From assembly GCA_020632535.1 (NCBI GenBank), contig JACKFJ010000004.1, positions 105,514 to 169,513 on the forward strand: DNA of 64,000 nt, read 5' to 3'. The notes below the pieces were generated by a model, which was not told the DNA's origin, did not search any database, and saw only the letters and a program-made list of their open reading frames with translations. Shown here in pieces: positions 28,130-44,243 of the stretch. The first letter of the stretch is position 1. The number at the start of each line of letters is the position of its first letter. The stretch is from Candidatus Omnitrophota bacterium (GTDB taxonomy: Bacteria; Omnitrophota; Gorgyraeia; Zapsychrales; JANLHA01). The position numbers and the translations under genes are program-made.

Positions 28130-28366
28130 TTTCCGTACCGTACAATCGGTACTGCCATTGCGAGGAGGCCTTTAGGCCGACGCGGCAAACTAAAAAACCC
28201 ATTGCGAGCCCGAAGGGCGCAGTTATCATTGCGAGGAGTTCCGCAGGAACGACGCGGCAATCTGTTTTGTCATTCCCGCAATCTCTTGGCGGGAATCCAT
28301 GGCACTGACAGTAACGCCTCTCATACTTCCATACTTCGCAAAAGGGTCTGTCCCCTTCTTGCGCCC
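28130..28366. repeat. cluster of dispersed hairpin (REP-like) repeat units at the left edge of the RHS island
   Basis: Units: cattgcgagGAGGCCTTTAGGCCgacgcggcaa, cattgcgaGCCCGAAGGGCgc, cattgcgaggaGTTCCGCAGGAACgacgcggcaat and gtcATTCCCGCaatctcttgGCGGGAATcc. The same modules occur at 36.5 and 44.4 kb, and inverted at 59.9 and 61.2 kb. Confidence 0.85.
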
Positions 28367-28368
28367 AA

Positions 28369-28764
28369 TTATTCTTCAAATTTAGATAATTCATTATTCA
28401 AATCAGTGCATAACCTCTCTGGATCCACAACGACACCTTTTGACACAACAGTTGGGAAAACGCCAACTCTCCTTTTGTCTTTAATCATTCCAGGAATCCA
28501 TCTATCTAACCAATCTTGCAAAATAATAAATCGAGGAGCACAATCTTTCCATTCATCGTTCGCACATAATTTTGCATATTCGCTATGCGACCAAACTGGG
28601 ATAACTTCATTCCCATTAGCATCCAAAGCTGAAACCCAACCATCTTTATTTCTTAACGCCCATACCTTTTCCGAATCCGCAACCCTTTTAATAAAATAAG
28701 AATATCTTTCTGCCCCAGCTAAATTAACAACAGATTGAATTTCATGAATACTGAGAATAGCCAT
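28369..28764 (-). CDS. DUF2750-like putative immunity protein (for displaced toxin tip CT4)
   Basis: KVWALRNKDGWV...IPVWSHSEYA...LQDWLDRWIPGMIKDKRRVGVFP matches my memory of DUF2750. The start abuts the CT4 stop. Confidence 0.6.
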   Translation of the reverse strand: MAILSIHEIQSVVNLAGAERYSYFIKRVADSEKVWALRNKDGWVSALDANGNEVIPVWSHSEYAKLCANDEWKDCAPRFIILQDWLDRWIPGMIKDKRRVGVFPTVVSKGVVVDPERLCTDLNNELSKFEE

Positions 28765-29249
28765 CTAATATCCCTCAACTTTATGTTGCAGTTTATGTAA
28801 ATCTATATCTTGCAAATCACTATGTTCATATCCATATCCTTGTTTGGCTTCTTTCCCTCGTCGATGAGCTAATTGTTTTGTCGGAGGAACTCTAATTTTT
28901 GATCTTTGTCCTCTCTCGATACTATTAATATCTTGTTTTATCCATCCTTTGTCAGATTTAGAAACATTTTTATCAGTTAATAAACTTTTCAATTTTTGTT
29001 GTTTGCCTGTACGACCGGAAATCTTACATATACCCTTCGCAACTTTTCCTCCCCCTTGTACATAACCTGCCCCTCCAGGCAAAAATGGAGTACCTAACGC
29101 GACAGAATCATATGCCAGTGATGCTCCCGTCAATAGACCGGGTTCAGTTAAAAAATAGTATAAACTCAACTGCCAAGTAACATAATCGGAAGGTGTTTCA
29201 ACGATTAACCCATACGGATCAACAAAATTGATCGGATCGCTTTCGACAT
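28765..29249 (-). pseudogene. displaced RHS C-terminal toxin tip CT4 (HNH/EndoVII-like?), severed from its core by the transposon
   Basis: Reads (V)ESDPINFVDPYGLIVETPSDYVTWQLSLYYFLTEPGLLTGAS...KGIC, identical to the main RHS protein. It then has a unique tail: ...KGWIKQDINSIERGQRSKIRVPPTKQLAHRRGKEAKQGYGYEHSDLQDIDLHKLQHK. No upstream core remains; the transposon end is at 29250. Confidence 0.7.
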
Positions 29250-29350
29250 GATACCGTCGAAGAACCCTGCATTTCCAAGTGGACGGACTTTCCGTCCTTT
29301 TTAAAAGAGCAAATTTATCACGACACAGCTATACCGTGTCTTTTAATCTC

Positions 29351-30979
29351 CTAAAATCCCATCACCACCTCCGCTTGTCCTGCAAATCCTTCCAAAACTA
29401 ACTTAATCCACCGCTTAATATTCACGGCAGCGGCAGTGAATAATGCCTGCAATTGTACTTTTGGTAATCCTCGATACTTCGCCCGTCTTAGACCGTGATA
29501 TCGTGTCAATTCTGATAACTTTCCTTCGATCGGCGGACGTAATTTCATATCTTTTTTAAATTCATCCGTTTTGTTGTAGATTTCGGCCTCCCGCAACTCC
29601 TTATTAAACATGCTTATTCCTACTGTCCGTCGCCCTTCCTCAGCTTTGGTACATTCTTTTCTCACCGGACACTTCCTGCACACGCTCATTGGAAAATGAA
29701 ATTGTTTCAACCCATGCTGATGATCTTCAAAATAGGTATTTGTCTTCACACCCTGCGGACATGTTAACGTCAGCGTTTTTTCATCATAATGAAACAAGCT
29801 TTTCGGATAAACTTTTTGAGTAGATTGATTTGCATTCCGCAACGGCGCAACCATCATTGTCGCATTATCATTTAACAGTTTTCGATGCACCCCATTCGCG
29901 TAAGCCGTGTCACCGATTAATTTCTGCGGTACAAGGCCGCTCTTCTTTTGTTCCACTATCATTTGTACTGTCGGCTCACCATCAGGGCGGTTACCGCGCA
30001 TAACATTAATGTTGGTTATAAAATGATTCTCGACAGCCTCCGTCACATTCGCCTTATACCCCACAAATCGTTTTGTGTCTGACTTACATCCATAGCGGGC
30101 ATCCTCGTCGATTGGACTTACCAATAAATCCTTCGGCTTGTCTTTATATTCCCGCTCTTCAATCTTTTCTTGTGATTCTTTGACGTTTTCCTGTAAAATT
30201 CGCTTTAACATCTCGATCCGTTTTCTCAAATCACGGCCAACATTTGCACCTTCTATTTCTTCCAAAACACATCGCGCGTCCATCACTACTTTTACCAGTT
30301 TTACTTTGCGCTTTTCAATATCTAATCGCCCCTCATCGGCCTGATTTACTTTTTCCCGTGTATATTCTGCCATATCAATCTTTCCAAGAATCTTTTCGTA
30401 AACTTTTGGCTTCTGCCCTTTAAGCGGTTTTAATATCTCACGGACACCTTTCTTAACCAGCGCAACCACCGTCGGAATCGCAATATCTGCGATCATGTGG
30501 GTCGCATCAATCCGCTGAATCTCATCGCGCTTGATTAACTCTAAATCAATTAATCGATTTAAAACTTTATCAAAGATCATCTTGCTCTGGCCATTGTCCA
30601 ATAAGCGTTTCCTAAAATCTCCCAAACTTGAATGGTCGAATGGGCGCTCGTTAAGTTTTAATCCAAGCGCGTATTTGATTTCAATATCGTACATACAAGC
30701 CCGTTCCATCTCGCGATCAGAAAGATTTTTATGAAATTGCAACAGCAAAACCATTGCTAATAATTTCGGCGAGATCGGCGGACGCCCATTGTCCTGACAA
30801 TACATCGTTTCAAAATCTAATTCATCCATCAGAGGGGAGACAATTTCTTTGAACTTACGGTAATAACTTTCGGCAGGAATCAGTTCTTCGCAGAGATACT
30901 CGGCATCATAAAACGAAGCTTGTCGTTGGGGATTTTTGAGCATTCTGAAGTCTCCTTTGCGGTTGTTTATTAGCTCCAT
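29351..30979 (-). CDS. IS1182-family-like (IS5 superfamily) DDE transposase
   Basis: N-terminal DUF772-like region (ISPKLLAMVLLLQFHKNLSDREMERACMYDIEIKYALGL). DDE candidates are RIDATHM, LIGDTAYANG and IEGKLSELTRYHGLRRAKYRG. 542 aa. Confidence 0.8.
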   Translation of the reverse strand: MELINNRKGDFRMLKNPQRQASFYDAEYLCEELIPAESYYRKFKEIVSPLMDELDFETMYCQDNGRPPISPKLLAMVLLLQFHKNLSDREMERACMYDIEIKYALGLKLNERPFDHSSLGDFRKRLLDNGQSKMIFDKVLNRLIDLELIKRDEIQRIDATHMIADIAIPTVVALVKKGVREILKPLKGQKPKVYEKILGKIDMAEYTREKVNQADEGRLDIEKRKVKLVKVVMDARCVLEEIEGANVGRDLRKRIEMLKRILQENVKESQEKIEEREYKDKPKDLLVSPIDEDARYGCKSDTKRFVGYKANVTEAVENHFITNINVMRGNRPDGEPTVQMIVEQKKSGLVPQKLIGDTAYANGVHRKLLNDNATMMVAPLRNANQSTQKVYPKSLFHYDEKTLTLTCPQGVKTNTYFEDHQHGLKQFHFPMSVCRKCPVRKECTKAEEGRRTVGISMFNKELREAEIYNKTDEFKKDMKLRPPIEGKLSELTRYHGLRRAKYRGLPKVQLQALFTAAAVNIKRWIKLVLEGFAGQAEVVMGF

Positions 30980-31018
30980 TATAACTCATTCTCCGTCGAC
31001 AAATAGGCATTTTGTGAA

Positions 31019-31255
31019 TTATTTTGTTTGCTGATTTCTTTCAAATATACCTACTACACCAATTAGAGAATCCTTGGTTAACAAATTATAATCCTCTAAA
31101 TGAACGTGTCCTTGATTGGGCTTTGCAATAAGTTTTAGAATCAAATCTGAGAGCTTTTGAAGACCTTCTTTTGTTCCATAAACACAAACCTCATTATTCT
31201 CAAATCTCAACTCTAAAGTTTTATCCTTAAAATCAGGTTTTCTAAATTCTGACAT
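31019..31255 (-). CDS. 78-aa immunity-like protein for CT2 (transposon cargo)
   Basis: Starts 12 nt after the CT2 stop, behind aagggaaag. It is small and cytoplasmic, and sits in the position of an immunity gene. Confidence 0.55.
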   Translation of the reverse strand: MSEFRKPDFKDKTLELRFENNEVCVYGTKEGLQKLSDLILKLIAKPNQGHVHLEDYNLLTKDSLIGVVGIFERNQQTK

Positions 31256-31270
31256 TTCTTTCCCTTTCTT

Positions 31271-32490
31271 TTACCACGTCCACCAGTGGGGATGTCCCCA
31301 AGGCTTTCCGTGATGAGCTTTATCCAATCTAAATCCCCATTTAAATCGTTTACTTAATATCCTAAAAATATTATTACCTTGTTTACCTATTTCAATTCCT
31401 GCATAGTCAGCCGCAATTGCTACTGCTGTTGCTCCTGCTGCTGTCCCGACGGCAATTCTTTCACCCGTTTTTTCCCATCCGCATGATCCTTCCGTATACT
31501 TCATCGGATCGCCCCAACCTGTCGGACCATTTGATCCCCACTCCGACATCGGTTGGCCGTATGGACCCGGTAATGCGCTTTCATAAAACCACCAATTAAA
31601 TTGATCTTCCCCCCAATACAATCCAAGCGGATCTATTCTATTAATAGGATCGTTGCCGGTGTAAGCGTAAAGGTTGGTTTCGGAGATAAGTTTTCCGACA
31701 CTATCAACATAACCGTATAGATCAACATCTCCCCCATCAAACCCAATCGGGTCTTTGGCGGTCCAGCGGCCGGTTGCGGGGTCGTAGTCACGAAAACCAA
31801 ATCGGACTAAACCAATATCCCGATCATGTAAACCTCCCGCAAAACCAAACGGGACAGTAAATGTCGGGGCGGTGTCAGCGAGAATGTTTCCAAATGAGTC
31901 ATAATCAATTCGTTTAACGATTGCGCCAGTTGAACTCATCACAGCACGCAATGATCCAACTTGATCATAGCTCAAATAATACGTCGCGCTGTCCTTGGTC
32001 ATCACACTCGGCATACGACTATCCGAGTACTCAAAGCGCATCAAAAGATTATCTGATCCGTCATAAACAGCTAAGAGCTGTGTTAATCCCGCCCAGAGAT
32101 ATTTTTCAATGACCGAACCGTTAATCTTCTTGGCGATACGACGACCCAAAGGATCATGGACATATTCAATCGTCCGTCCGTCGGGCAAAGAAACATTTAA
32201 CAACTCACCGCGAGATGAATAATTGTACGTCGTTATAGACGAACCATCAGTTTTACGCGATAAGAATCCATCGGCATCATATTGATACGTCACACTGCCA
32301 ACGCTTAAGAGCTGATCTTCCGCATTGTATGTCAAAGAACGCCCGGCAATGCCGCGCAGAGAGTTCATTTCATAAGTGCGCGTGCCTAACGGATTAGAAC
32401 CAGTATATCGATACTCCTCAACGAGAGCATTGTCTTTTTCAACGTGTGTCAGACGGCCAGTGGCATCGTACGTGTAAACGGTATTTGACG
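31271..32490 (-). pseudogene. 5'-truncated orphan RHS core fragment A fused in frame to transposon-borne toxin tip CT2
   Basis: The open frame from about 32497 (..NTVYTYDATGRLTHVEKDNALVEEYRYTGSNPLGTRTYEMNSLRG..) is homologous to main RHS residues from about 1985 onward. At DVDLYGYV it continues into element-encoded DSVGKLISETNLYAYTGNDPINRIDPLGL plus a roughly 115-aa tip. Confidence 0.75.
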
Positions 32491-32851: not shown

Positions 32852-33360
32852 TTATTTATATGATTGTATAGGCAAGCCACTTAAACCATATTCGTCCATT
32901 AATTTTCCACCAAATTGGTAAATATCCTGAGGGGTGGCGTTCGGGTTACTCTTTATAAAGTTCTCCCATCGTTCGTTCCATTTGCCGGGCATATTATTTA
33001 GTCCATTCCCGTGAACACCCTTAAGATGTGCTGTATTCTGCGGAATAGATACAGTAAATTTGTCAATATCTATACCCTTCGAGTTAAAGAATGGTTTAAA
33101 TCTTTGCGGGAATATGTGGTGTTTTGCCATTTTAGGAGCGGTAAGTAAACAAATTTTACTTGCACCTTGGGCATACCCTCCCCCACCGGGCAGAAAAGGA
33201 AGGCCTAACGCTACTGAGTCATAAGCTAACGACGCCCCAGTCAACAAACCTGGTGCAGTTGTAAAATAATAAAAACTTAACTGCCAAGTAATATAATCGG
33301 AAGGCGTCTCGAAGACTAGCCCCTCTGGATCCACCCCGTTTACCGGATCATTGAGAACAT
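32852..33360 (-). pseudogene. displaced RHS toxin tip CT3 (HHIFPQ..WN..W..F type, AHH/DUF2380-like?), severed by the transposon
   Basis: Reads (V)LNDPVNGVDPEGLVFETPSDYITWQLSFYYFTTAPGLLTGAS..., then KHHIFPQRFKPFFNSKGIDIDKFTVSIPQNTAHLKGVHG...KWNERWENF. The transposon end is at 33361. Confidence 0.7.
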
Positions 33361-33461
33361 GATACCGTCGAAGAACCCTGCATTTCCAAGTGGACGGACT
33401 TTCCGTCCTTTTTAAAAGAGCAAATTTATCACGACACAGCTATACCGTGTCTTTTAATCTC

Positions 33462-35090
33462 CTAAAATCCCATCACCACCTCCGCTTGTCCTGCAAATCC
33501 TTCCAAAACTAACTTAATCCACCGCTTAATATTCACGGCAGCGGCAGTGAATAATGCCTGCAATTGTACTTTTGGTAATCCTCGATACTTCGCCCGTCTT
33601 AGACCGTGATATCGTGTCAATTCTGATAACTTTCCTTCGATCGGCGGACGTAATTTCATATCTTTTTTAAATTCATCCGTTTTGTTGTAGATTTCGGCCT
33701 CCCGCAACTCCTTATTAAACATGCTTATTCCTACTGTCCGTCGCCCTTCCTCAGCTTTGGTACATTCTTTTCTCACCGGACACTTCCTGCACACGCTCAT
33801 TGGAAAATGAAATTGTTTCAACCCATGCTGATGATCTTCAAAATAGGTATTTGTCTTCACACCCTGCGGACATGTTAACGTCAGCGTTTTTTCATCATAA
33901 TGAAACAAGCTTTTCGGATAAACTTTTTGAGTAGATTGATTTGCATTCCGCAACGGCGCAACCATCATTGTCGCATTATCATTTAACAGTTTTCGATGCA
34001 CCCCATTCGCGTAAGCCGTGTCACCGATTAATTTCTGCGGTACAAGGCCGCTCTTCTTTTGTTCCACTATCATTTGTACTGTCGGCTCACCATCAGGGCG
34101 GTTACCGCGCATAACATTAATGTTGGTTATAAAATGATTCTCGACAGCCTCCGTCACATTCGCCTTATACCCCACAAATCGTTTTGTGTCTGACTTACAT
34201 CCATAGCGGGCATCCTCGTCGATTGGACTTACCAATAAATCCTTCGGCTTGTCTTTATATTCCCGCTCTTCAATCTTTTCTTGTGATTCTTTGACGTTTT
34301 CCTGTAAAATTCGCTTTAACATCTCGATCCGTTTTCTCAAATCACGGCCAACATTTGCACCTTCTATTTCTTCCAAAACACATCGCGCGTCCATCACTAC
34401 TTTTACCAGTTTTACTTTGCGCTTTTCAATATCTAATCGCCCCTCATCGGCCTGATTTACTTTTTCCCGTGTATATTCTGCCATATCAATCTTTCCAAGA
34501 ATCTTTTCGTAAACTTTTGGCTTCTGCCCTTTAAGCGGTTTTAATATCTCACGGACACCTTTCTTAACCAGCGCAACCACCGTCGGAATCGCAATATCTG
34601 CGATCATGTGGGTCGCATCAATCCGCTGAATCTCATCGCGCTTGATTAACTCTAAATCAATTAATCGATTTAAAACTTTATCAAAGATCATCTTGCTCTG
34701 GCCATTGTCCAATAAGCGTTTCCTAAAATCTCCCAAACTTGAATGGTCGAATGGGCGCTCGTTAAGTTTTAATCCAAGCGCGTATTTGATTTCAATATCG
34801 TACATACAAGCCCGTTCCATCTCGCGATCAGAAAGATTTTTATGAAATTGCAACAGCAAAACCATTGCTAATAATTTCGGCGAGATCGGCGGACGCCCAT
34901 TGTCCTGACAATACATCGTTTCAAAATCTAATTCATCCATCAGAGGGGAGACAATTTCTTTGAACTTACGGTAATAACTTTCGGCAGGAATCAGTTCTTC
35001 GCAGAGATACTCGGCATCATAAAACGAAGCTTGTCGTTGGGGATTTTTGAGCATTCTGAAGTCTCCTTTGCGGTTGTTTATTAGCTCCAT
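33462..35090 (-). CDS. IS1182-family-like DDE transposase (copy B)
   Basis: Identical 542-aa product to 29351..30979. Confidence 0.8.
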   Translation of the reverse strand: MELINNRKGDFRMLKNPQRQASFYDAEYLCEELIPAESYYRKFKEIVSPLMDELDFETMYCQDNGRPPISPKLLAMVLLLQFHKNLSDREMERACMYDIEIKYALGLKLNERPFDHSSLGDFRKRLLDNGQSKMIFDKVLNRLIDLELIKRDEIQRIDATHMIADIAIPTVVALVKKGVREILKPLKGQKPKVYEKILGKIDMAEYTREKVNQADEGRLDIEKRKVKLVKVVMDARCVLEEIEGANVGRDLRKRIEMLKRILQENVKESQEKIEEREYKDKPKDLLVSPIDEDARYGCKSDTKRFVGYKANVTEAVENHFITNINVMRGNRPDGEPTVQMIVEQKKSGLVPQKLIGDTAYANGVHRKLLNDNATMMVAPLRNANQSTQKVYPKSLFHYDEKTLTLTCPQGVKTNTYFEDHQHGLKQFHFPMSVCRKCPVRKECTKAEEGRRTVGISMFNKELREAEIYNKTDEFKKDMKLRPPIEGKLSELTRYHGLRRAKYRGLPKVQLQALFTAAAVNIKRWIKLVLEGFAGQAEVVMGF

Positions 35091-35129
35091 TATAACTCAT
35101 TCTCCGTCGACAAATAGGCATTTTGTGAA

Positions 35130-35366
35130 TTATTTTGTTTGCTGATTTCTTTCAAATATACCTACTACACCAATTAGAGAATCCTTGGTTAACAAATTAT
35201 AATCCTCTAAATGAACGTGTCCTTGATTGGGCTTTGCAATAAGTTTTAGAATCAAATCTGAGAGCTTTTGAAGACCTTCTTTTGTTCCATAAACACAAAC
35301 CTCATTATTCTCAAATCTCAACTCTAAAGTTTTATCCTTAAAATCAGGTTTTCTAAATTCTGACAT
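35130..35366 (-). CDS. 78-aa immunity-like protein for CT2 (copy B)
   Basis: Identical to 31019..31255. Confidence 0.55.
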   Translation of the reverse strand: MSEFRKPDFKDKTLELRFENNEVCVYGTKEGLQKLSDLILKLIAKPNQGHVHLEDYNLLTKDSLIGVVGIFERNQQTK

Positions 35367-35381
35367 TTCTTTCCCTTTCTT

Positions 35382-36498
35382 TTACCACGTCCACCAGTGG
35401 GGATGTCCCCAAGGCTTTCCGTGATGAGCTTTATCCAATCTAAATCCCCATTTAAATCGTTTACTTAATATCCTAAAAATATTATTACCTTGTTTACCTA
35501 TTTCAATTCCTGCATAGTCAGCCGCAATTGCTACTGCTGTTGCTCCTGCTGCTGTCCCGACGGCAATTCTTTCACCCGTTTTTTCCCATCCGCATGATCC
35601 TTCCGTATACTTCATCGGATCGCCCCAACCTGTCGGACCATTTGATCCCCACTCCGACATCGGTTGGCCGTATGGACCCGGTAATGCGCTTTCATAAAAC
35701 CACCAATTAAATTGATCTTCCCCCCAATACAATCCAAGCGGATCTATTCTATTAATAGGATCGTTGCCGGTGTAAGCGTAAAGGTTGGTTTCGGAGATAA
35801 GTTTTCCGACACTATCAACATAGCCATACAGATCAACATCTCCCCCATCAAAGCCGATTGGGTCTTTGGCGGTCCAGCGGCCGGTTGCGGGGTCATAGTC
35901 ACGAAAACCAAACCTGACTAAACCAACATCCCGATCATGTAAACCACCGGCAAAACCAAACGGAACACTAAATGTCGGGGCAGTATCGACAAGGATGTTT
36001 CCAAATGAGTCATAATCAATTCGTTTAACGGTTGCGCCAGTTGAACTCATCACAGCACGCAATGATCCAACTTGATCATAGCTCAAATAATACGTCGCGC
36101 TGTCCTTGGTCATCACACTCGGCATACGACTATCCGAGTACTCAAAACGCATCAAAAGATTATTTGATCCATCGTAAACAGCTAAGAGCTGAGTTAATCC
36201 GGCCCAGAGATATTTTTCAACAACGGAACCGTTAATCTTTTTAGCGATACGACGACCCAGAGGATCATGAATATATTCGATCGTCCGTCCGTCGGGTAAA
36301 GAAACCTGCAACAATTCTCCACGGGACGAATAATTGTACGTCGTTATAGACGAACCGTCAGTTTTACGCGACAAGAATCCGTCAGCATCATATTGATACG
36401 TCACACTGCCAACGCTTAAAAGCTGATCTTCCGCATTGTATGTCAGAGAACGCCCGGCAATGCCGCGCAGAGAGTTCATTTCATAAGTGCGCGTGCCT
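35382..36498 (-). pseudogene. 5'-truncated orphan RHS core fragment B fused to transposon-borne CT2
   Basis: Homology to the main RHS gene ends at 36498, where a REP cluster begins. The core part is closer to the main gene than fragment A is (for example QVSLPDGRTIEYIH, SNNLL). Confidence 0.75.
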
Positions 36499-36506
36499 TG
36501 TTAGTA

Positions 36507-36632
36507 GGCACCATTGCGAGGAGGCCTTTAGGCCGACGCGGCAAACTAAAAAACCCATTGCGAGCCCGAAGGGCGCGGCAATCTATTCCAAGTTTGTCAT
36601 CCCCGAAATCTCTTATCGGGGATCCATTTGCT
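36507..36632. repeat. REP-like hairpin cluster between the main RHS module and the orphan array
   Basis: Same modules as at 28.15 kb, minus one unit. The terminal hairpin ATCCCCGAaatctcttaTCGGGGAT covaries with ATTCCCGC..GCGGGAAT. Confidence 0.85.
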
Positions 36633-37073: not shown

Positions 37074-40000
37074 TTAGTATGGTGGAACTTTATACCCAAT
37101 TCTTTTTTGAAATTCAATATACACGCTTTGTCCTTCTTCAGGCCCTATTGGCAAATACTTATGCAGGTCACTTTCCAAACTCAACATATCCTTCTTATTC
37201 CCAGATGTTAATATTTTTAATTTTCCTCCATCTAGTTCCTTAGCAGTGTATCGACTTGCAGGATTCTTTGATATACCATATTTTAAGTGCTTCCCAGCTT
37301 TATCTAGTTTTTGATACAAGTAGACACTATCATGGGCTGTAGATTTTGTTAAATTACATATACCCTTCGCAACTTTTCCTCCCCCTTGTACATAACCTGC
37401 CCCTCCAGGCAAAAATGGAGTACCTAACGCGACAGAATCATATGCCAGTGATGCTCCCGTCAATAGACCGGGTTCAGTTAAAAAATAGTATAAACTCAAC
37501 TGCCAAGTAACATAATCGGAAGGTGTTTCAACGATTAACCCATACGGATCAACAAAATTGATCGGATCGCTTTCGACATAACCGTATAGATCAACATCTC
37601 CCCCATCAAACCCGATCGGGTCTTTGGCGGTCCAGCGGCCGGTTGCGGGGTCATAGTCACGAAAACCAAACCTGACTAAACCAACATCCCGATCATGTAA
37701 ACCTCCCGCAAAACCAAACGGAACACTAAATGCCGGAGCGGTGTCAGCGAGAATGTTTCCAAATGAGTCATAATCAATTCGTTTAACGATTGCGCCAGTT
37801 GAACTCATCACAGCACGCAATGATCCAACTTGATCATAGCTCAAATAATACGTCGCGCTGTCCTTGGTCATCACACTCGGCATACGACTATCCGAGTACT
37901 CAAAGCGCATCAAAAGATTATTTGATCCGTCATAAACAGCTAAGAGCTGAGTTAATCCCGCCCAGAGATATTTCTCAACGACCGAACCGTTAATCTTTTT
38001 GGCGATACGACGACCCAGAGGATCATGAATATATTCGATTGTCCGTCCGTCGGGTAAAGAAACCTGCAACAATTCTCCACGGGACGAATAATTGTACGTC
38101 GTTATAGACGAACCGTCAGTTTTACGCGACAAGAATCCGTCAGCATCATATTGATACGTCACACTGCCAACGCTTAAAAGCTGATCTTCCGCATTGTATG
38201 CCAAAGAACGCCCGGCAATGCCGCGCAGAGAGTTCATTTCATAAGTGCGCGTGCCTAACGGATTAGAACCAGTATATCGATACTCCTCAACGAGAGTATT
38301 GTCTTTTTCAACTTTTGTCAGACGACCCAAAGAGTCGTAAGTATAAACATAATTGGACGTAATCCCCGCGACGGTTTCACTCTTGGTTGCGATCTGACCA
38401 TTATTATTGTATGTCAGAGTCCACGAACCAGCGGCGGCGCTATTGACGGTTTGCGATTGAGTTGTCACCTCACCAAAACCATTAAACGTCCGGCCCAAGT
38501 TCAAAGCCCCACCGATCACGGCCGTCGGTAAACCATTTTGCGCGTTACGAGTAATCGAAAATATACCCGATGACGTCAATAGCCCGTCATTGTCATATCC
38601 AAAACTATTCGTTGCCCCAGCGTAAGTAAAACCGGCAATTTTAAGATCATTATTAAACGTAAAGGCAAGCGTCTGTGCCAGCGTTCCGGTGGACACGACT
38701 GTTTTTGGCAGACTGCCGTCGTAAGTGTAAGCGATCGACTCGCCGCTTTTGGTGATCGATGCCAATTGCCCTGAAGGTAAATATGTCGGATCAACATTCC
38801 CCTCCGGCGTCTGCACCTGTGTCAACTGCACGCCGGTATAAATGTTCTTAATCTTTTTGCCTGATGGGAAATTAACTTCCTTTAAACGCCGCTCTTTATC
38901 ATAAACATACTGCGTTGACAATGAAATCGGCGGAGCATAACTCGTCGGTAAGTTCACATTATTGTAAATATATCCGTGATTCTGACTCGACGGATTTGTC
39001 AGCACTGTCATATTGCCGTTTGCGTCATAATCAAAACGGACATTGGTCGTATCCGGACGATTAATGGCTTTGAGACGGCCGACGGCATCATAAGTGTAAC
39101 TTGTGCGATTGCCTCTAGGGTCAGTCACCGATTGCACATTCCCAGCCAAATCATAAATCAAAGACGTTGTCCGTGTCCCAGCGACCACAGTGTTAACTCG
39201 GCCCTTAAAGTCATAGGTATACGACGTATCGACTAACCCGGGCACACTGACCTTGGACGTCAAAAGTGTCGTGGGATCATAAACCGCAGTGACTTTCCGG
39301 CCAAGCGGAGACATGGCAGTAAAAGTCGATGTTATGGTGTCATGCGTCACCGTGGACGTCTTATTATTTAACGACGCGGTGCGAACAATGCGATCAATCT
39401 TTTGATCATTGTTTGTGTCGGTATAGGTTCGATTATAAACAACCTGTGCCTTTAATCCGGCGGGGGTTGTTATGGTAGACGTTTTAAGATATTTGAACTT
39501 GTATTTTGGATCAATATCAAAATTAAAATCTTGAACGGTCAAGTCCGGAGAGGTTACTTTGGCAATCAATTCATTGGCAGTCCGCGTAAAAATCGTCGGC
39601 TTTGTCACGCCGGACACTGAACTTGTCGCCGTCCATGTGCCGTCGGCCGAAATCTGATCCACGTAAGTGACGATGTTGCCTTCGGCGCTGGTCACGGTTG
39701 TTGTTACATCGCCGCTATTGCTTTGAATCTGCTGAGCAAACTTTTCATGCCCGCCTTCTTGGTCCTGAACATCGGTGATACGGCCGTTCGAATTGAAAGT
39801 GTGGGTGAAAAAATTGCCTTTGGGTTCCGTCTCTTTGGTTAAAAGACCCCCGGCAGAGTACTCAAACTTATAGAATTGTCCGTCCGGATAGGTTATCCGT
39901 GTTAAATGCTTGCTAGAGTCGATCGTGAGATTCGTCCGTACACCATCGGGGGAAACGATCGCAGTCGGAACCCCAGCACCGTTGCGCTCAACCGTTATTT

Positions 40001-43000
40001 TATTATTAAAAAGATCCGTCGATGATACTAATCGACCTGAAGCATCGTAATCAAATTGTTCAAGAACTTTTTGAGTGTCCAGATCGACCGTTTGTTTGTG
40101 TTTTCCATCAAGCGAGAATACATAGCCAACGCCTTCTTCAGCGAATGTCATATCCCCGGGGTCGGCGGGGGTCAAGGATATTGTGGCAGTAATTTTACGG
40201 ATACGGTGATTATGTGAATCCGCAAAATAAACATTCCCAAGATTATCAAGTGTTAACTCCTGTGGATTAGCGATCTGCGCTATAATCGCAGGATAATTAT
40301 CTCCATTATATCCAAAAACACCGTTTCCTGCGATTGTCGTAATGATGCCAGTAGCATCAATTTTACGAATCCGACTATTTTCTGAATCAGAAAAATAAAT
40401 ATTCCCAAGTTTATCAAGTTCGAGTCCGCTAGGGTGGGAAATTCCTGCCTCTGCGGCTAGGCCGCCATCTCCGCTATATTCTCGCCTGCCAGTTCCTGCA
40501 ATCAACCTAAGAATTCCTTCTGAGTCTATTTTAAAGATGCGATCACTTATTGTATCCGCAAAATAAATATTCCCATTTTCATCAGTCGCCAATCCAGAGG
40601 GATAGGTTATTGGAGTATTTACAGCTAATACCCCACTTCCTGGATAACCCCAAGACCCCTTTCCAGCAATAGTTTTGATCACACCATCGGTATCAATTTT
40701 ACGAATTCGGAAATTCTCCTTATCGAGAAAATAAATATTCCCGTTTTGATCAACCGCCACACTAGTGGGAGAATTTAACTTCGCCGCTATCGCCGGACCG
40801 CCATCTCCGCTGTATCCTCCACTGCCGTAAGCCCCAATAAATCCTGTTCCAGCAATTGTTTTAATAACACCACTTACATCTACTTTGCGTATACGATGAT
40901 TGCCAGAATCGGCAATCAAAATATTTCCATATTGATCAACCGTAATTCCCGAGGGATTATTTAATTGAGCTGCAGTGGCTGGGCCGCCATCTCCGCTGTA
41001 TCCTCCCGCACCTGTCCCAGCAAAAGTCTGAATAATTCCACTTAAATCAATTTTACGAATACGATTATTTTCCGAAATATAAATATTCCCGTTCTGATCA
41101 ACCGCCATATATACAGGGTAATTTAAATTCGCCTTATCGGCTGGGACACCATCTTCACTGTATCCACCTACACCTGTTCCCGCGACAGTTGAAATTATGT
41201 ACACACCATTGTTGTTCACAACATCGCCATTTCCCTTGTAAAGGGTACTTATATCTCGCGCGCTCATATAATGGTGATTGGATAGTGTCCACCCTTCGGC
41301 TAAACCTTCACGTGCTTGCGCTTGGTTGTATACGAGAAAACTCTGTTTTTTAGAATACATATACTCATCCCGAGCAGGAACAGCTGATTGCGAGACTCCG
41401 GGGAGACCGAATACTGCTGGTCTAACGCCCCCACCGAATGCCGAATACATCATATTGTATACAAATTCGGTCGTGATATACGCAGTGGCAGAGTTCACTC
41501 GGTGGCCTAAATGATCTAAACCATCCCAGCTGAATTCCGCAATTTGATTCGCTGATGCCGGTAAGATCTTCTCAAATGTCCGGCCAGCGATATCTACTCT
41601 AACAACGATCCTTTTGAGGGAAGGCGGAACCGTTGCGCCGCTTGCAGGAACCGTAATGATTGTTTTGTAGTCAGGAACGCGGTTGCTGGCGAAATGAAGA
41701 GTTAGACCCGTACCGGGGATAGCAATATCTTCATGGTAAATTCGGCTGCGGCAATTGACATACGAATTGACTGACTTGTCACAATCTTCGTCTTTTTTCT
41801 TTTGTTGATCCACATTGGGTGTCCCAGTCGCGTTGGGCGCGATCGCATCCGCCGAAACAAAGATCGGCCAATTGAGATCCCACGGCGTAAAATGCGTAAT
41901 ACTTGCCCGCCAAAACGTTTTGCCGGATGCATACTTGGCGGGATCATCCAAGCCCTTAACTTCGTCGGTAAAATCCCCGTTACTGTTAAGATCATTCGGC
42001 AAGCCATCATTGTCAGAATCAAGCGCATCCACGATGCCGTCGCTGTTCGTGTCCAAAAGCTTAACCACACGGCCATTATCCGACGCAACCCATTGACCGC
42101 GATCGCGGTCATAATATCCGACGGGCACAATCTCACCTACGTCAAACCCAAGAAAATTATCAACATAAAAAACAACAGGATCTTTAAATCTTACCCGATC
42201 GACACCATCGGCTTTAAGCTCGACACAATATGTAAAAGCAGATGTGGGCGGCAGGACAGCCGGCATAGACGCAGGCGTCGTAAACTCCGTGGCGCGTATG
42301 CTCAACTTTGTCAACTCAAGCATGTCATTGCCGTTTTCATCAACGGCGTACGCCTTATTGTCGCCGACAATAACAACGTTTGCCTGACGGATACCAGAAA
42401 CATCTGTCACGGGAGTGCTCTGGTGGACAATGACACTGGTGGCATCACCATTGAGCGTAACTGTTGTAGCCTTTGCATCTTCGACGAGCATCGTAACTGT
42501 TTCGACAATAGCGATGTCATTAGGGGCAACATGAACCTGCCGATGACTATCGATATAGCCTTGTTTTGTGAAAACAATATTTAATGTCCCGTTGCTGTCA
42601 ACGGGTAAAGAAAATTGACCTTTTGAATCCGTCTTCGCAGTACCGAACTTTGAATTACGATCTACGACAATTGCGACATCGGGAAGCGGCGCGTTATTTT
42701 TATCCTTAACTTCTCCGCGAACGACCGCAAAGCGCTTGATATCGTATTCTTTGACTGTTGAATCAGTTGGAATAATCTCCTTATACTGCGCGCCAAATGT
42801 TCCTTCCGGCGGTGTAATCGGAGCCCCCGTGACATAAACTGTCACCTTTTCATTAACAGAACCCAAAGATCCCGTCGCGGTGATCGTATAGGTCGTTGTA
42901 ACTTTTGGCGAAATAGTCAAAGTTCCGCTATTGGCAACTAAGCCGATCCCATTGTCTACATATAGGGAGGACGCGTTCGTGGATGTCCAGCTCAAGTTCG

Positions 43001-44243
43001 TTGATGCGTCGCTTTGAATTGTCTGTGGGTTGGCGAAAATGGTCACGGCCGGTTTTATTTCTAAAACAGATAATGTCACACTCTTGGTGTCCGTACCACC
43101 CTGTCCGATCGCGGTAACTGTATATGTTGTTGTCGTTGTCGGGGAAACTGAGATATTGCCAATTGATACAACACTACCAATGTCCGGTGTAATTGTACAG
43201 GTATCGGCATCGGTGCATTGCCAACTTAAAGTAGCTGTTTGGCCTTGAGAAATCGACGTCGGATCTATCATAATACTTGCCGTCGGTACGGAAACTTGAG
43301 AATCCGATAAAGTTGTTGCCTTTGTGACGTGCGACTTTTTGCCTTCGCCGGTTGAATTGACGGCCGCTACCGCAAAATAATACTGAGTGTCTCCCTCAAG
43401 ACCCGCAACAATATATTGCGTTACATTATCGACAACAACGGGTGTTCCAAAAACATTCGGTGATGTGCCATAATAAATTTTGTATGACGTCGCGCTGGGC
43501 ACAGCATCCCATATTAATTTGACTTGATTAATTTCGCCAACCGCCGAATGGATGTGCGGACGTCTCGGCAAAGTGAGCGCACTTTTTTCATTGGATTTAG
43601 GACTTACTCCACCCAAATTGATAGCTGATACTTTAAAATAATACGTTGTCCCGCTCTTTAGCCCTCTGACGGTGTGCGTTGTGACATTGTTGACAAGTAC
43701 AATGCGCCCAAAGCGGCCTTGCGCTGATCGAAGATAAATTTTATACCACTTTGCGCCTGTGACCGCGCTCCAATTTAATGTGGCTTGATGATTTCCACCG
43801 ATGACTGTATTTAAAACGGGAGCCGTTGCAATGTCAGGAAATGTCGTCCCACTTTTTTCTTTAGATTTTGGACTTTCTTGTTTTGAATCGATAGCTGTCA
43901 CAGCCAAATAATAAGTCGTCCCAGACTTAAGGCCGGTTAAATTAACTACAGGTACTTGCCCAACCTTGATCGAAGCTCCGTAAACACCTGATGATGTGCC
44001 GTAATACACTTTGTAGGACTTGGCACCAGATACTGGAATCCATGTCACAAGCAATTGATTGGAGCCGCCTATTACGGAAAGAATTGTTGGGGGGTTAATG
44101 ATGGAAGAAAACGCTTCTGCCGAACCGACGCCGATTTTGCCGACTGAGAAAAAAGTGGAGAATAAATAAATTAGGAGTGTAAATGACTTGATTAAGAAAA
44201 AACGCGCGCGCATGGGCTGGGTTTTGTTTTTTTGGTTCGACAT
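37074..44243 (-). CDS. teneurin-like RHS/YD-repeat polymorphic toxin (2389 aa)
   Basis: Domain order: signal/TM; four FN3-like repeats (SGTTYYLAVTAID, SGTTYYFKVSAIN, DTQYYFAVAAVN); two Ig-like repeats; a carboxypeptidase-regulatory-like domain (GEVKDKNNAPLPDVAIVVD..TDSKGQFSL); a TSP3-like Asp-rich motif (DSDNDGLPNDLNSNGD); about six NHL repeats (SGDGGPA..LN.P.G..VD..GNIY..D..N.RIRKI); a long YD-repeat shell; the RHS end motif DVDLYGYVESDPINFVDPYGL; a hydrophobic TG linker; and a roughly 80-aa tip. Confidence 0.9.
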   Translation of the reverse strand: MSNQKNKTQPMRARFFLIKSFTLLIYLFSTFFSVGKIGVGSAEAFSSIINPPTILSVIGGSNQLLVTWIPVSGAKSYKVYYGTSSGVYGASIKVGQVPVVNLTGLKSGTTYYLAVTAIDSKQESPKSKEKSGTTFPDIATAPVLNTVIGGNHQATLNWSAVTGAKWYKIYLRSAQGRFGRIVLVNNVTTHTVRGLKSGTTYYFKVSAINLGGVSPKSNEKSALTLPRRPHIHSAVGEINQVKLIWDAVPSATSYKIYYGTSPNVFGTPVVVDNVTQYIVAGLEGDTQYYFAVAAVNSTGEGKKSHVTKATTLSDSQVSVPTASIMIDPTSISQGQTATLSWQCTDADTCTITPDIGSVVSIGNISVSPTTTTTYTVTAIGQGGTDTKSVTLSVLEIKPAVTIFANPQTIQSDASTNLSWTSTNASSLYVDNGIGLVANSGTLTISPKVTTTYTITATGSLGSVNEKVTVYVTGAPITPPEGTFGAQYKEIIPTDSTVKEYDIKRFAVVRGEVKDKNNAPLPDVAIVVDRNSKFGTAKTDSKGQFSLPVDSNGTLNIVFTKQGYIDSHRQVHVAPNDIAIVETVTMLVEDAKATTVTLNGDATSVIVHQSTPVTDVSGIRQANVVIVGDNKAYAVDENGNDMLELTKLSIRATEFTTPASMPAVLPPTSAFTYCVELKADGVDRVRFKDPVVFYVDNFLGFDVGEIVPVGYYDRDRGQWVASDNGRVVKLLDTNSDGIVDALDSDNDGLPNDLNSNGDFTDEVKGLDDPAKYASGKTFWRASITHFTPWDLNWPIFVSADAIAPNATGTPNVDQQKKKDEDCDKSVNSYVNCRSRIYHEDIAIPGTGLTLHFASNRVPDYKTIITVPASGATVPPSLKRIVVRVDIAGRTFEKILPASANQIAEFSWDGLDHLGHRVNSATAYITTEFVYNMMYSAFGGGVRPAVFGLPGVSQSAVPARDEYMYSKKQSFLVYNQAQAREGLAEGWTLSNHHYMSARDISTLYKGNGDVVNNNGVYIISTVAGTGVGGYSEDGVPADKANLNYPVYMAVDQNGNIYISENNRIRKIDLSGIIQTFAGTGAGGYSGDGGPATAAQLNNPSGITVDQYGNILIADSGNHRIRKVDVSGVIKTIAGTGFIGAYGSGGYSGDGGPAIAAKLNSPTSVAVDQNGNIYFLDKENFRIRKIDTDGVIKTIAGKGSWGYPGSGVLAVNTPITYPSGLATDENGNIYFADTISDRIFKIDSEGILRLIAGTGRREYSGDGGLAAEAGISHPSGLELDKLGNIYFSDSENSRIRKIDATGIITTIAGNGVFGYNGDNYPAIIAQIANPQELTLDNLGNVYFADSHNHRIRKITATISLTPADPGDMTFAEEGVGYVFSLDGKHKQTVDLDTQKVLEQFDYDASGRLVSSTDLFNNKITVERNGAGVPTAIVSPDGVRTNLTIDSSKHLTRITYPDGQFYKFEYSAGGLLTKETEPKGNFFTHTFNSNGRITDVQDQEGGHEKFAQQIQSNSGDVTTTVTSAEGNIVTYVDQISADGTWTATSSVSGVTKPTIFTRTANELIAKVTSPDLTVQDFNFDIDPKYKFKYLKTSTITTPAGLKAQVVYNRTYTDTNNDQKIDRIVRTASLNNKTSTVTHDTITSTFTAMSPLGRKVTAVYDPTTLLTSKVSVPGLVDTSYTYDFKGRVNTVVAGTRTTSLIYDLAGNVQSVTDPRGNRTSYTYDAVGRLKAINRPDTTNVRFDYDANGNMTVLTNPSSQNHGYIYNNVNLPTSYAPPISLSTQYVYDKERRLKEVNFPSGKKIKNIYTGVQLTQVQTPEGNVDPTYLPSGQLASITKSGESIAYTYDGSLPKTVVSTGTLAQTLAFTFNNDLKIAGFTYAGATNSFGYDNDGLLTSSGIFSITRNAQNGLPTAVIGGALNLGRTFNGFGEVTTQSQTVNSAAAGSWTLTYNNNGQIATKSETVAGITSNYVYTYDSLGRLTKVEKDNTLVEEYRYTGSNPLGTRTYEMNSLRGIAGRSLAYNAEDQLLSVGSVTYQYDADGFLSRKTDGSSITTYNYSSRGELLQVSLPDGRTIEYIHDPLGRRIAKKINGSVVEKYLWAGLTQLLAVYDGSNNLLMRFEYSDSRMPSVMTKDSATYYLSYDQVGSLRAVMSSTGAIVKRIDYDSFGNILADTAPAFSVPFGFAGGLHDRDVGLVRFGFRDYDPATGRWTAKDPIGFDGGDVDLYGYVESDPINFVDPYGLIVETPSDYVTWQLSLYYFLTEPGLLTGASLAYDSVALGTPFLPGGAGYVQGGGKVAKGICNLTKSTAHDSVYLYQKLDKAGKHLKYGISKNPASRYTAKELDGGKLKILTSGNKKDMLSLESDLHKYLPIGPEEGQSVYIEFQKRIGYKVPPY

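What the first reader, a model, noticed from the sequence alone, without database searches (positions are those of the whole stretch)
29246..31710. A transposon whose cargo is a start-less RHS toxin tip and its immunity gene
- Seen in sequence: 29250..31706 is 100% identical to 33361..35817. Identity stops abruptly at both ends, where the flanking RHS sequence is only about 90% identical.
- Seen in sequence: the two ends form imperfect inverted repeats, GATACCGTCGAAGAAC and (T)GATAGTGTCGGAAAAC, with 12 of 16 positions matching. Each copy is flanked by a direct ACAT.
- Contents in the gene direction: an open frame with no start codon that runs from the element's first base (DSVGKLISETNLYAYTGNDPINRIDPLGL plus a roughly 115-aa tip ending HPHWWTW); a 78-aa gene 12 nt downstream; then a 542-aa IS1182-like DDE transposase.
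- The toxin frame can only be expressed by reading in from a host RHS gene, and in both copies it is fused in frame after ...DVDLYGYV.
- Inference: this is a mobile toxin-tip-swapping cassette. It converts whichever RHS protein it hits into a carrier of its own toxin, supplies the matching immunity gene, and displaces the resident tip. I am not aware of a described IS-borne RHS tip with this design.
Basis: partly seen in the sequence, partly recalled or inferred. Interest (0 to 1): 0.92.

Follow-up and report, generated by a model that had tools for sequence, protein, structure and literature searches.

The report
Transposon that swaps RHS toxin tips
This is a jumping gene that carries a start-less toxin domain and a likely antidote gene, and it inserts in frame at one exact spot in bacterial RHS toxin genes; the design recurs in many bacteria and offers a vehicle for how these toxins acquire new warheads.

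Summary

**In the window**
- Two 100% identical copies of a 2,456-bp element lie at 29250..31705 and 33361..35816, on the minus strand.
- Each copy has imperfect terminal inverted repeats and a 5-bp target duplication.
- Each carries, in the gene direction, a start-less RHS core end plus a 115-aa tip, a 78-aa gene and an IS1182-family transposase.
- Each interrupts an orphan RHS module between ...LYGYV and xxDPxNxVDPxGL. The intact 2,389-aa RHS gene in the same window is the matching empty site.

**Elsewhere**
- The same design is found in about 45 distinct elements from Omnitrophota, Bdellovibrionota, Geobacter and many metagenomes.
- The left repeat, GATAGTGTCGGAAAAC, is translated as DSVGK.
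- 29 of 41 insertion sites lie at the same RHS codon. Cargo tips differ almost everywhere.
- One identical copy splits a transporter gene, and removing it restores a 418-aa ORF. The tip, small gene and transposase therefore move as one unit.
- Full-length RHS proteins of 1,192-2,205 aa carry the junction signature.

**Not shown**
- Toxicity, immunity, self-cleavage and transposition activity are untested.

I found no published description. I rate it a new variant of a known kind, a passenger-carrying insertion sequence (IS), with unprecedented logic.

The parts
29250..31705 (-). Element copy 1 (2,456 bp), inserted in orphan RHS module 1
   Evidence: It is 100% identical to copy 2. The ends and duplication were located. 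The same end sequences bound about 45 related elements.
33361..35816 (-). Element copy 2 (2,456 bp), inserted in orphan RHS module 2
   Evidence: It has a perfect 5-bp duplication, ATGTT on the gene strand, at 35817..35821 and 33356..33360.
31690..31705 (-). Left terminal repeat of copy 1, GATAGTGTCGGAAAAC, translated as DSVGK (copy 2: 35801..35816)
   Evidence: The identical 16-mer forms the left end of elements in Geobacter, Omnitrophota and many metagenome contigs.
29250..29265 (-). Right terminal repeat of copy 1, + strand GATACCGTCGAAGAAC (copy 2: 33361..33376)
   Evidence: It matches the left repeat at 12 of 16 positions.
31706..31710 (-). Left copy of the 5-bp target duplication of copy 1 (gene strand ATGTT)
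29245..29249 (-). Right copy of the target duplication of copy 1 (gene strand ATGTC, one mismatch to the left copy)
   Evidence: This base lies inside a tract that is 100% identical to the main RHS gene. Gene conversion from the main gene may therefore have rewritten it.
31619..31705 (-). Cargo part 1: start-less RHS core end, DSVGKLISETNLYAYTGNDPINRIDPLGL
   Evidence: It gives a partial match to TIGR03696 (Rhs_assc_core) of 24.6 bits, below the cut-off of 32.5. DSVGK lies 19 residues before DPLGL, the same spacing as the native DPIGF...DPYGL.
31271..31618 (-). Cargo part 2: 115-aa tip (putative toxin) plus stop codon
   Evidence: It matches no Pfam or NCBIfam family. Only six homologues were found, some in native RHS ends that lack the repeat-coded unit. 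The AlphaFold2 model has pLDDT 41.6.
31019..31255 (-). 78-aa putative immunity gene (copy 2: 35130..35366)
   Evidence: It matches Pfam Imm32 with E 2.9e-5 and 24.3 bits, below the cut-off of 27. The position directly after the tip is conserved across the family. The AlphaFold2 model has pLDDT 55.
29351..30943 (-). IS1182-family DDE transposase, 530 aa (the ORF extends to 30979 for 542 aa; copy 2: 33462..35054)
   Evidence: It scores 344 bits against NCBIfam NF033551, cut-off 270. Pfam finds DUF772 and DDE_Tnp_1_6. P0001 is 100% identical at 530 aa. A TATAAT at 30983..30978 and an AAAGGAG ribosome-binding site precede the ATG at 30943.
31711..32368 (-). Orphan RHS core fragment 1, read in frame into the element (...DVDLYGYV)
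35822..36479 (-). Orphan RHS core fragment 2, read in frame into the element
28768..29244 (-). Displaced resident tip of orphan 1 (ESDPINFVDPYGL... with an Ntox8 toxin domain)
   Evidence: Pfam Ntox8, E 3.5e-21. The frame was reconstructed. The downstream gene 28369..28764 is DUF2750.
32855..33355 (-). Displaced resident tip of orphan 2 (LNDPVNGVDPEGL... with a SitA6/DUF2380-like domain)
37074..44243 (-). Full-length teneurin-like RHS gene (2,389 aa) with the unoccupied target site at 37575..37579
   Evidence: Pfam finds fn3, TTR, NHL, RHS_repeat and YD-shell domains. The empty-site sequence GGTTATGTCGAAAGCGATCC was located.

Best explanation
The block is a passenger-carrying insertion sequence of the IS1182 family that homes to the 3' end of RHS cores.

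**Shown**
- The unit is bounded by 16-bp imperfect inverted repeats and makes a 5-bp target duplication.
- Its three genes all point the same way: a start-less tip, one small ORF and the transposase.
- It inserts between the codons for NLYxYV and xNNPxNxxDPxGL.
- Because the left repeat is itself an open coding sequence (DSVGK), the host RHS frame runs straight into the element.
- It then reads through the element's own copy of the NLYxYxxNNPxNxxDPxGL motif and into the element's tip.
- The resident tip and its immunity gene are pushed downstream, behind the transposase.
- The tip, small ORF and transposase move together.

**Inferred**
- The fused RHS protein packages the new tip and releases it by self-cleavage.
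  - The element supplies the second DPxGL motif, which holds the catalytic aspartate.
  - It also supplies a DSVG unit at the native 19-residue spacing of the first motif.
- The small ORF protects the host against the new tip.
- The transposase recognises target DNA that includes the NNP codons.
- The element's own internal NLYxY|xNNP site can be hit again, which allows serial displacement.
For: **In the window**
- The empty site and the two filled sites have exact junctions.
- The transposase scores 344 bits against IS1182 model NF033551, cut-off 270.

**The unit moves as a whole**
- Three identical 2,569-bp copies occur in one 3.36-Mb contig. Two are in RHS arrays and one is in a CitMHS gene, with duplication ACACC.
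- Removing that third copy and one duplication restores a 418-aa ORF.

**The design recurs**
- It is found in Omnitrophota, Bdellovibrionota and Geobacter anodireducens.
- It is found in about 45 distinct elements in all.
- 29 of 41 sites are RHS on both sides.
- The 5-bp duplication is perfect at 14 of those 29 RHS sites and at several non-RHS sites.
- The non-RHS site has AATAACCC at the same spacing from the insertion point as the RHS NNP codons.

**The fusion is used**
- In several loci the in-frame RHS ORF upstream of the element is long, at least 1,048 aa in L059.
- Full-length RHS proteins of 1,192-2,205 aa carry the junction signature.
- Proteins and loci with two tandem repeat-coded units show repeated insertion at the internal site. 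P0138 starts with the window's own DSVGKLISETNLYAYT unit.

**The cargo looks like toxin and immunity pairs**
- Tips are nearly all different from one another.
- One tip matches Tlde1, a family I recall as a type VI secretion toxin. One other tip matches a glycine-zipper family.
- 26 of 34 small ORFs have membrane-spanning segments.

**The cleavage motif**
- Published work places the catalytic aspartate in the second of two DPLGL motifs that lie 17 residues apart (PMC8636562).
Against: - No expression, cleavage, toxicity, immunity or transposition data exist.
- Both window copies lie in orphan fragments, so neither is currently part of a full-length delivery protein.
- The window tip belongs to no known toxin family, and both structure models were too poor to use.
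- The Imm32 match is below Pfam's cut-off.
- Copy 1 has a one-base mismatch between its two duplication copies. About half of the RHS sites elsewhere also have imperfect duplications. Recombination therefore also reshapes these junctions.
- Variants whose repeat codes GTVGK or GSVGK lack the aspartate of the pseudo-first motif.
- The window comes from a metagenome-assembled genome, and I could not check reads across the repeat.
Confidence: 0.85

Rival explanations
1. An ordinary IS1182 element landed beside ordinary orphan RHS modules. The 2.46-kb identity would then be a segmental duplication, gene conversion or assembly artefact, and the tip and small gene would not be part of the mobile unit.
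For: - The two orphan modules are homologous on both sides of the block, so recombination between them is possible.
- The source is a metagenome-assembled genome.
- As I recall, canonical IS1182 elements are under 2 kb with a single ORF.
Against: - Identity ends within a few bases of the inverted repeats on both sides.
- The main RHS gene is a precise empty site.
- A related element with its tip and small gene sits inside a transporter gene, and excising it restores the ORF.
- The left repeat lies upstream of the tip in about 45 elements.
- Several contigs break within a few bases of the left repeat, as expected at the edge of a multi-copy repeat.
Confidence: 0.03
2. The element is real, but the second copy in this window arose by gene conversion or homologous recombination between the two orphan modules, not by a second transposition. 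More generally, the element would spread within RHS arrays mainly through RHS-core homology.
For: - Copy 1 has a mismatched duplication, ATGTT/ATGTC.
- Its right flank, including that duplication copy, is 100% identical to the main RHS gene for about 205 nt. This shows recent conversion in the array.
- 15 of 29 RHS sites elsewhere have imperfect duplications.
Against: - A conversion tract would have to end within 1-6 nt of the element on both sides.
- Copy 2 and many other sites have perfect duplications, and non-RHS insertions exist.
- This rival changes the history of one copy, not what the element is.
Confidence: 0.2
3. The element is a purely selfish IS that happens to prefer RHS core ends. 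Its tip would be a dragged-along, non-functional remnant, and insertion would simply inactivate the resident toxin.
For: - Many insertions are in orphan fragments.
- Most tips and small ORFs match no known family.
- A 2,016-bp derivative with only a vestigial 33-aa frame is multi-copy at non-RHS sites. The transposase therefore does not need the cargo.
Against: - Across 38 elements with intact tips the frame stays open, at 90-171 aa. The DPxG positions are invariant or nearly so.
- The tips themselves are almost all different. This is the pattern of polymorphic toxins under diversifying selection, not decay.
- One small ORF almost always follows the tip.
- Full-length RHS fusions exist.
- One tip matches Tlde1, a known toxin family as I recall.
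Confidence: 0.08

Closest known systems
C-terminal displacement of Rhs tips and orphan modules (Jackson et al. 2009, PMC2935791; Koskiniemi et al. 2014, as cited in PMC5727410)
   Same: - A new tip and immunity pair takes the 3' end of an rhs gene.
- The old tip and its immunity gene are left downstream as an orphan.
   Different: - The accepted mechanism is homologous recombination in the conserved core, and the vehicle that brings new tips in was left open.
- Here the tip arrives inside a DDE transposon with inverted repeats and a 5-bp duplication, at one fixed codon.
- No homology is needed, as the transporter-gene insertion shows.
Insertion sequences with passenger genes (transporter IS; from my own knowledge of ISfinder usage)
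   Same: One transposase gene plus non-transposition genes lie between a single pair of terminal repeats, and everything moves as one unit.
   Different: - Known passengers are complete genes.
- Here the main passenger has no start codon or promoter.
- It becomes a gene only by in-frame fusion through a translated terminal repeat.
IS1182 family, for example IS1272 (PMC5678879)
   Same: - The transposase is homologous: NF033551 is passed, and Pfam finds DUF772 and DDE_Tnp_1_6.
- Some family members are known to choose structured or specific targets.
   Different: - IS1272 replaces stem-loops and makes no duplication.
- This clade makes 5-bp duplications, targets an RHS coding motif and is about 2.2-2.95 kb with cargo.
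- The closest plasmid-borne IS1182 transposases are at most 31% identical.
H-rpt (ISAs1-family) elements in E. coli Rhs loci (from my own knowledge)
   Same: An IS-like element is habitually found just downstream of rhs core extensions.
   Different: H-rpt is not known to carry the tip within its ends or to fuse in frame with the core.
Site-specific cassette switching of protein C-termini (shufflons, phage tail-fibre invertases) and site-specific transposons such as Tn7 (from my own knowledge)
   Same: - A mobile or invertible DNA segment changes the C-terminal module of a surface or weapon protein.
- Alternatively, it inserts at one conserved site without destroying the host function.
   Different: - Those systems use serine or tyrosine recombinases on resident cassettes, or they insert outside the coding frame.
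- None delivers a foreign coding module in frame by DDE transposition.

Membership tests
IS1182 family insertion sequence | DDE transposase matching the family model | tested here: met
   NCBIfam NF033551 scores 344.1 bits against a cut-off of 270 and covers residues 23-527. Pfam finds DUF772, DDE_Tnp_1 and DDE_Tnp_1_6.
IS1182 family insertion sequence | Terminal inverted repeats at both ends of the mobile unit | tested here: met
   The window ends match at 12 of 16 positions, and a relative's ends at 13 of 16. The ends coincide with the limits of identity among multi-copy elements.
IS1182 family insertion sequence | Target-site duplication created on insertion (the family is heterogeneous, and some members make none: PMC5678879) | tested here: met
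   The duplication is 5 bp. It is perfect for window copy 2, for L002 and L004, and for 14 of 29 RHS sites.
IS1182 family insertion sequence | Simple IS layout: a single transposase ORF in about 1.3-1.95 kb (recalled from ISfinder, not checked here) | tested here: not met
   The window element is 2,456 bp with two further ORFs between the repeats. Relatives are 2.2-2.95 kb. It is therefore a passenger-carrying variant, not a canonical IS.
Passenger-carrying IS (transporter IS) | Passenger genes lie inside the terminal repeats and move with the transposase | tested here: met
   L004 carries the tip, a 110-aa gene and the transposase inside a CitMHS gene, and excision restores a 418-aa ORF. L002, L003 and L004 are identical only between the repeats.
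RHS/YD polymorphic toxin | YD-repeat shell with RHS repeats | tested here: met
   The main gene 37074..44243 contains RHS_repeat, TEN_YD-shell, NHL and fn3 domains. The orphan fragments are 87-99% identical to its 3' core in 200-nt windows.
RHS/YD polymorphic toxin | PxxxxDPxGL motif that separates the core from a variable C-terminal tip | tested here: met
   The motif is present in the main gene, in both displaced tips and in the element cargo, as NDPINRIDPLGL. The corresponding positions are invariant or nearly so across 28 element junctions.
RHS/YD polymorphic toxin | Cognate immunity gene directly downstream of the tip | tested here: inconclusive
   A 78-aa ORF lies 15 nt downstream. Its Imm32 score of 24.3 bits is below the cut-off of 27. 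The position is conserved in the family, but no functional test exists.
RHS/YD polymorphic toxin | Tip is toxic and is released by aspartyl self-cleavage | not testable with these tools
   The element carries the second DPxGL motif (PMC8636562). The tip matches no family and its model has pLDDT 41.6.
Classical Rhs C-terminal displacement by homologous recombination | The new tip enters by crossover within conserved core sequence, with no element boundaries | tested here: not met
   The boundaries are sharp, with inverted repeats and a 5-bp duplication at one fixed codon. Insertion also occurs at a non-homologous site.

The most novel reading that the evidence does not exclude
A widespread clade of IS1182-family elements would be dedicated toxin-tip delivery transposons.

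- Their left terminal repeat doubles as coding sequence that mimics the first DPxG motif of the RHS self-cleavage module.
- Their transposase recognises the DNA that encodes the RHS core end.
- Each carries a different start-less tip with its immunity gene.

They would be the long-sought vehicle that brings new tips into rhs loci. They would also be the first bacterial case of a transposon that delivers a protein domain in frame to a specific host gene family.
Probability: 0.6. Interest if true: 0.92.

Novelty: new variant of a known kind. Interest (0 to 1): 0.88.

Why it matters
- **An open question becomes testable.** Rhs and other polymorphic toxins are major weapons in bacterial competition. 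How new tips enter a genome has been open since the C-terminal displacement model (PMC2935791). That paper raised cargo on mobile elements only as one possible route, among others.
- **A concrete vehicle.**
  - This family needs no homology with the recipient.
  - It brings the likely antidote with the toxin.
  - It keeps the old immunity gene in place.
  - It can be hit again at its own internal site, which would build orphan arrays step by step.
- **New behaviour for an IS.** A terminal repeat is read as protein, and the cargo becomes a gene only after insertion.
- **Practical uses.**
  - The conserved left repeat and the DSVGK junction flag many uncharacterised toxin and immunity pairs.
  - The element suggests a natural tool for in-frame tagging of RHS carriers.

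Tried and rejected
- **Exact look-up of the 542-aa transposase** found nothing. The database holds the 530-aa form.
- **Genome scan with the single transposase** returned only three loci. An alignment-based metagenome scan was needed to get a census.
- **Junction-peptide profile searches.**
  - The word-indexed search returned only nine short proteins.
  - The 41-aa window junction alone worked.
- **Structure models were too poor to use.**
  - The tip gave pLDDT 41.6 from seven sequences.
  - The 78-aa protein gave pLDDT 55 from a single sequence.
  - No fold search was run on either.
- **Pfam on 38 tips and 34 small ORFs** named very few families.
- **Viral contigs** held no relative. Plasmids held only distant IS1182 transposases, at most 31% identical.
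- **A relic internal left repeat upstream of the transposase gene** was considered. The conserved TCGACGG...TATAAT motif there looks more like the transposase promoter, and it does not have the orientation a left repeat would have. I left this open.
- **A 4-bp duplication plus one variable element base** was rejected. Otherwise identical copies differ at that base, and it matches their right flank.
- **Eight literature searches** found no description of an IS-borne RHS tip. The library lacks most subscription journals and ISfinder/TnPedia.

Full report
**1. The observation**

A base-by-base comparison at an offset of 4,111 shows one uninterrupted identical run, 29246..31711 = 33357..35822, of 2,466 nt. 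Outside it the two regions still align but have diverged. The RHS-core side (31712..32387) is 92% identical. The other side is 72% identical for about 205 nt and then unrelated. All genes lie on the minus strand.

Read in the gene direction, the block begins GATAGTGTCGGAAAAC and ends GTTCTTCGACGGTATC. These form inverted repeats that match at 12 of 16 positions. There are three small corrections:
- The 78-aa gene starts 15 nt after the stop codon of the tip, not 12.
- The transposase most likely starts at 30943, giving 530 aa. A TATAAT and an AAAGGAG site sit upstream of that ATG, and the database copy P0001 is 530 aa.
- The target duplication is 5 bp, not 4 (section 3).

**2. The block is an insertion, and the window contains its empty site**

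Translating the three RHS 3' ends gives these readings:
- Main gene (37074..44243, 2,389 aa): ...GGDVDLYGYV|ESDPINFVDPYGLIVETPSDY...
- Orphan 1: ...GGDVDLYGYV|DSVGKLISETNLYAYTGNDPINRIDPLGL + tip ... [78-aa gene, transposase] ... HV|ESDPINFVDPYGLIVETPSDY...
- Orphan 2: the same element, followed by HV|LNDPVNGVDPEGLVFETPSDY...

At DNA level, the junction sequences are:
- Main gene: GGTT ATGTC GAAAGCGATCC, with GACAT at 37575..37579 on the + strand.
- Orphan 1: GGTT ATGTT [element] ATGTC GAAAGCGATCC.
- Orphan 2: GGCT ATGTT [element] ATGTT CTCAATGATCC.

The displaced sequences are genuine and different toxins. Orphan 1 carries Ntox8 followed by a DUF2750 gene. Orphan 2 carries a SitA6/DUF2380-like domain. 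The main gene is a teneurin-like RHS protein with fn3, TTR, NHL and YD-shell domains.

**3. The tip, small gene and transposase move as one unit**

The transposase is an IS1182-family enzyme. It scores 344 bits against NF033551, whose cut-off is 270. Its best database match comes from a Candidatus Omnitrophica metagenome-assembled genome.

A relative with a 79% identical transposase (P0014) occurs three times in one 3.36-Mb contig.
- The three loci are identical only over about 2,570 bp, and that stretch starts with the same GATAGTGTCGGAAAAC.
- Two copies sit in RHS arrays at the same codon (...NRYSYV|DSVGKP..., ...SLYEYA|DSVGKP...).
- The third sits inside a CitMHS transporter gene, with duplication ACACC. 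Deleting the element and one duplication copy restores a continuous 418-aa ORF.
- This element's tip and its 110-aa second gene are unrelated to those in the window.

This rules out the reading that an ordinary IS merely sits next to an orphan module. The base just outside GATAG differs among these identical copies and matches each copy's right flank, so the duplication is 5 bp.

**4. The design is a family trait**

The same architecture and junction appear in four further sources:
- A metagenome contig whose transposase is 89% identical (L001).
- A second Omnitrophota genome (L005).
- Two Bdellovibrionota genomes with about 50% identical transposases, where the repeat codes GTVGK (L006, L007).
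- The cultured Geobacter anodireducens SD-1 (L008). It reads RGGINLYSYV|DSVGKPPIPQTNLYQYTENNPINKTDPLGL, followed by a glycine-rich tip, with duplication ACGTT.

A metagenome scan with a transposase alignment returned 80 more loci. Scripts on all loci gave the following:
- There are 45 distinct elements of 2.0-2.95 kb.
- Nearly all have a start-less tip frame of 90-171 aa that begins at the left repeat, one small ORF, and a transposase of about 530 aa.
- Of 41 distinct sites with both flanks, 29 are RHS on both sides at the same codon and 32 on at least one side.
- The 5-bp duplication is perfect at 14 of the 29 RHS sites and at several non-RHS sites.

The junction peptide is strongly conserved: xxGGxxNLYxYV|DSVGKPxxETNLYxYTxNNPxNxIDPxGL.

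The tips are almost all different. A crude 4-mer grouping gives about 37 groups among 38 tips. One tip matches Tlde1, which I recall as a type VI secretion toxin family, and one other matches a glycine-zipper family. Of the 34 small ORFs, 26 have at least one membrane-spanning segment.

An exhaustive search with the 41-aa window junction found 175 representative proteins at E no greater than 0.001.
- 98 of the top 148 carry the junction signature.
- These include full-length RHS proteins of 1,192-2,205 aa, with the junction 50-130 residues before the C-terminus.
- In several loci the in-frame RHS ORF upstream of the element is long, at least 1,048 aa in L059.

Insertion into active, full-length genes therefore does occur, even though both window copies are in orphans.

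**5. How it most likely works**

*Shown:* the structure, the in-frame junction, the duplication, the site preference and co-mobility of the cargo.

*Inferred, target recognition at DNA level.* The transporter-gene site reads gtat ACACC cat AATAACCC. It has AAYAAYCC at exactly the spacing seen in RHS sites, for example ATGTC cac AATAATCC. The asymmetric motif would also explain the fixed orientation.

*Inferred, cleavage competence.* Rhs C-terminal cleavage follows two DPLGL-type motifs about 17 residues apart, and the catalytic aspartate is in the second (PMC8636562).
- The element carries that second motif.
- Its repeat-coded DSVGK lies 19 residues upstream, the same spacing as the native DPIGF...DPYGL.
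- Insertion thus creates a 16-residue tandem unit: DPIGFDGGDVDLYGYV / DSVGKLISETNLYAYT.
- The GTVGK and GSVGK variants lack that first aspartate, so its role is uncertain.

*Inferred, serial displacement.* The element's own NLYxY|xNNP site can itself be targeted.
- L023, L042, P0139, P0157 and P0226 have two or three tandem repeat-coded units.
- P0138 reads ...NLYGYV|DSVGKLISETNLYAYT|DSVGKGPETNLYGYTQNDPVNFIDPDG... Its first unit is identical to the window's.

*Inferred, origin by capture.* The window's tip also occurs behind a native RHS end that lacks the DSVGK unit, in P0122.

**6. Caveats**

- Nothing here shows expression, cleavage, toxicity, immunity or transposase activity.
- The window tip has no family match and only six homologues, and both structure models were unusable. 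The Imm32 score is below threshold.
- Copy 1 has a duplication mismatch, ATGTT/ATGTC. Its right flank, including that base, is 100% identical to the main gene for about 205 nt. Gene conversion from the main gene may therefore have rewritten it. Alternatively, copy 1 itself arose by conversion from copy 2, but that would need tract ends within 1-6 nt of the element on both sides.
- Imperfect duplications at about half of the RHS sites elsewhere show that recombination in the conserved core also acts on these loci.
- A 2,016-bp derivative with only a vestigial 33-aa frame transposes at non-RHS sites. The cargo is therefore not needed for mobility.

**7. Comparison with what is known, and novelty**

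By its transposase this is an IS1182-family element. By layout it is a passenger-carrying IS. It fails the simple-IS criterion of a single ORF in under 2 kb, which I recalled from ISfinder and did not check here.

Functionally it achieves Rhs C-terminal displacement, but by transposition rather than by the homologous recombination proposed in the literature. Jackson et al. raised cargo on mobile elements as one possible source of new tips, among others (PMC2935791). Recent surveys treat insertion sequences in rhs loci as disruptive.

Eight full-text searches found no description of an IS-borne, start-less RHS tip or of a translated terminal repeat. The library omits most subscription journals and the ISfinder and TnPedia notes, so prior mention cannot be excluded.

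I rate it a new variant of a known kind whose logic, in-frame domain delivery to one gene family, appears unprecedented in bacteria. Interest is 0.88.

Noticed in passing
window 28155-28227 and 36511-36583: A 73-nt GC-rich repeat, 96% identical and containing hairpins, brackets the orphan array. One copy lies just after the immunity gene of orphan 1 and the other just before the core fragment of orphan 2.
   Followed up: no
window 29041-29245 versus 37371-37575: The displaced tip of orphan 1 and the tip of the main RHS gene are 100% identical for about 205 nt, up to ...GGGKVAKGIC, and then unrelated. Different toxins therefore sit behind a shared pre-toxin linker, and the tract shows recent gene conversion in the array.
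   Followed up: partly
L062-L067 (metagenome loci), elements of 2,016 bp: This is a cargo-less derivative of the same IS clade. It keeps only a vestigial 33-aa frame, DTVGKAPGMNVYRRAADNPHQ..., and makes the duplication AAAGT. It is multi-copy and inserts in a palindromic repeat whose two flanks are reverse complements of each other.
   Followed up: partly
L023 34-130; L042 127-210; proteins P0138, P0139, P0157, P0226: Two or three tandem copies of the repeat-coded unit (for example DSVGKPLSDLNLFLYA) appear here. They are footprints of repeated insertion at the element's own internal target site.
   Followed up: partly
window 30978-31002 (copy 2: 35089-35113): A conserved motif, TTGTCGACGG-N10-TATAAT, lies upstream of the transposase start in close relatives. 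It is probably the transposase promoter. It shares TCGACGG with the right terminal repeat, so the transposase might bind it.
   Followed up: no
window 29281-29297 (copy 2: 33392-33408): A hairpin, GGACGGAAAGTCCGTCC, lies between the transposase stop codon and the right repeat and is partly conserved in L001 and L005. On the + strand it is followed by TTTTT, so it could stop transcription entering from outside.
   Followed up: no
L034 1760-4000; L073 559-1530: Related transposases lie downstream of an RHS tip and membrane-protein genes, with no recognisable left repeat. These could be truncated elements, or elements that lost or never had the left repeat.
   Followed up: no
window 40192-41168: A 168-nt periodicity in the main RHS gene corresponds to its NHL repeats. 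This is ordinary.
   Followed up: yes
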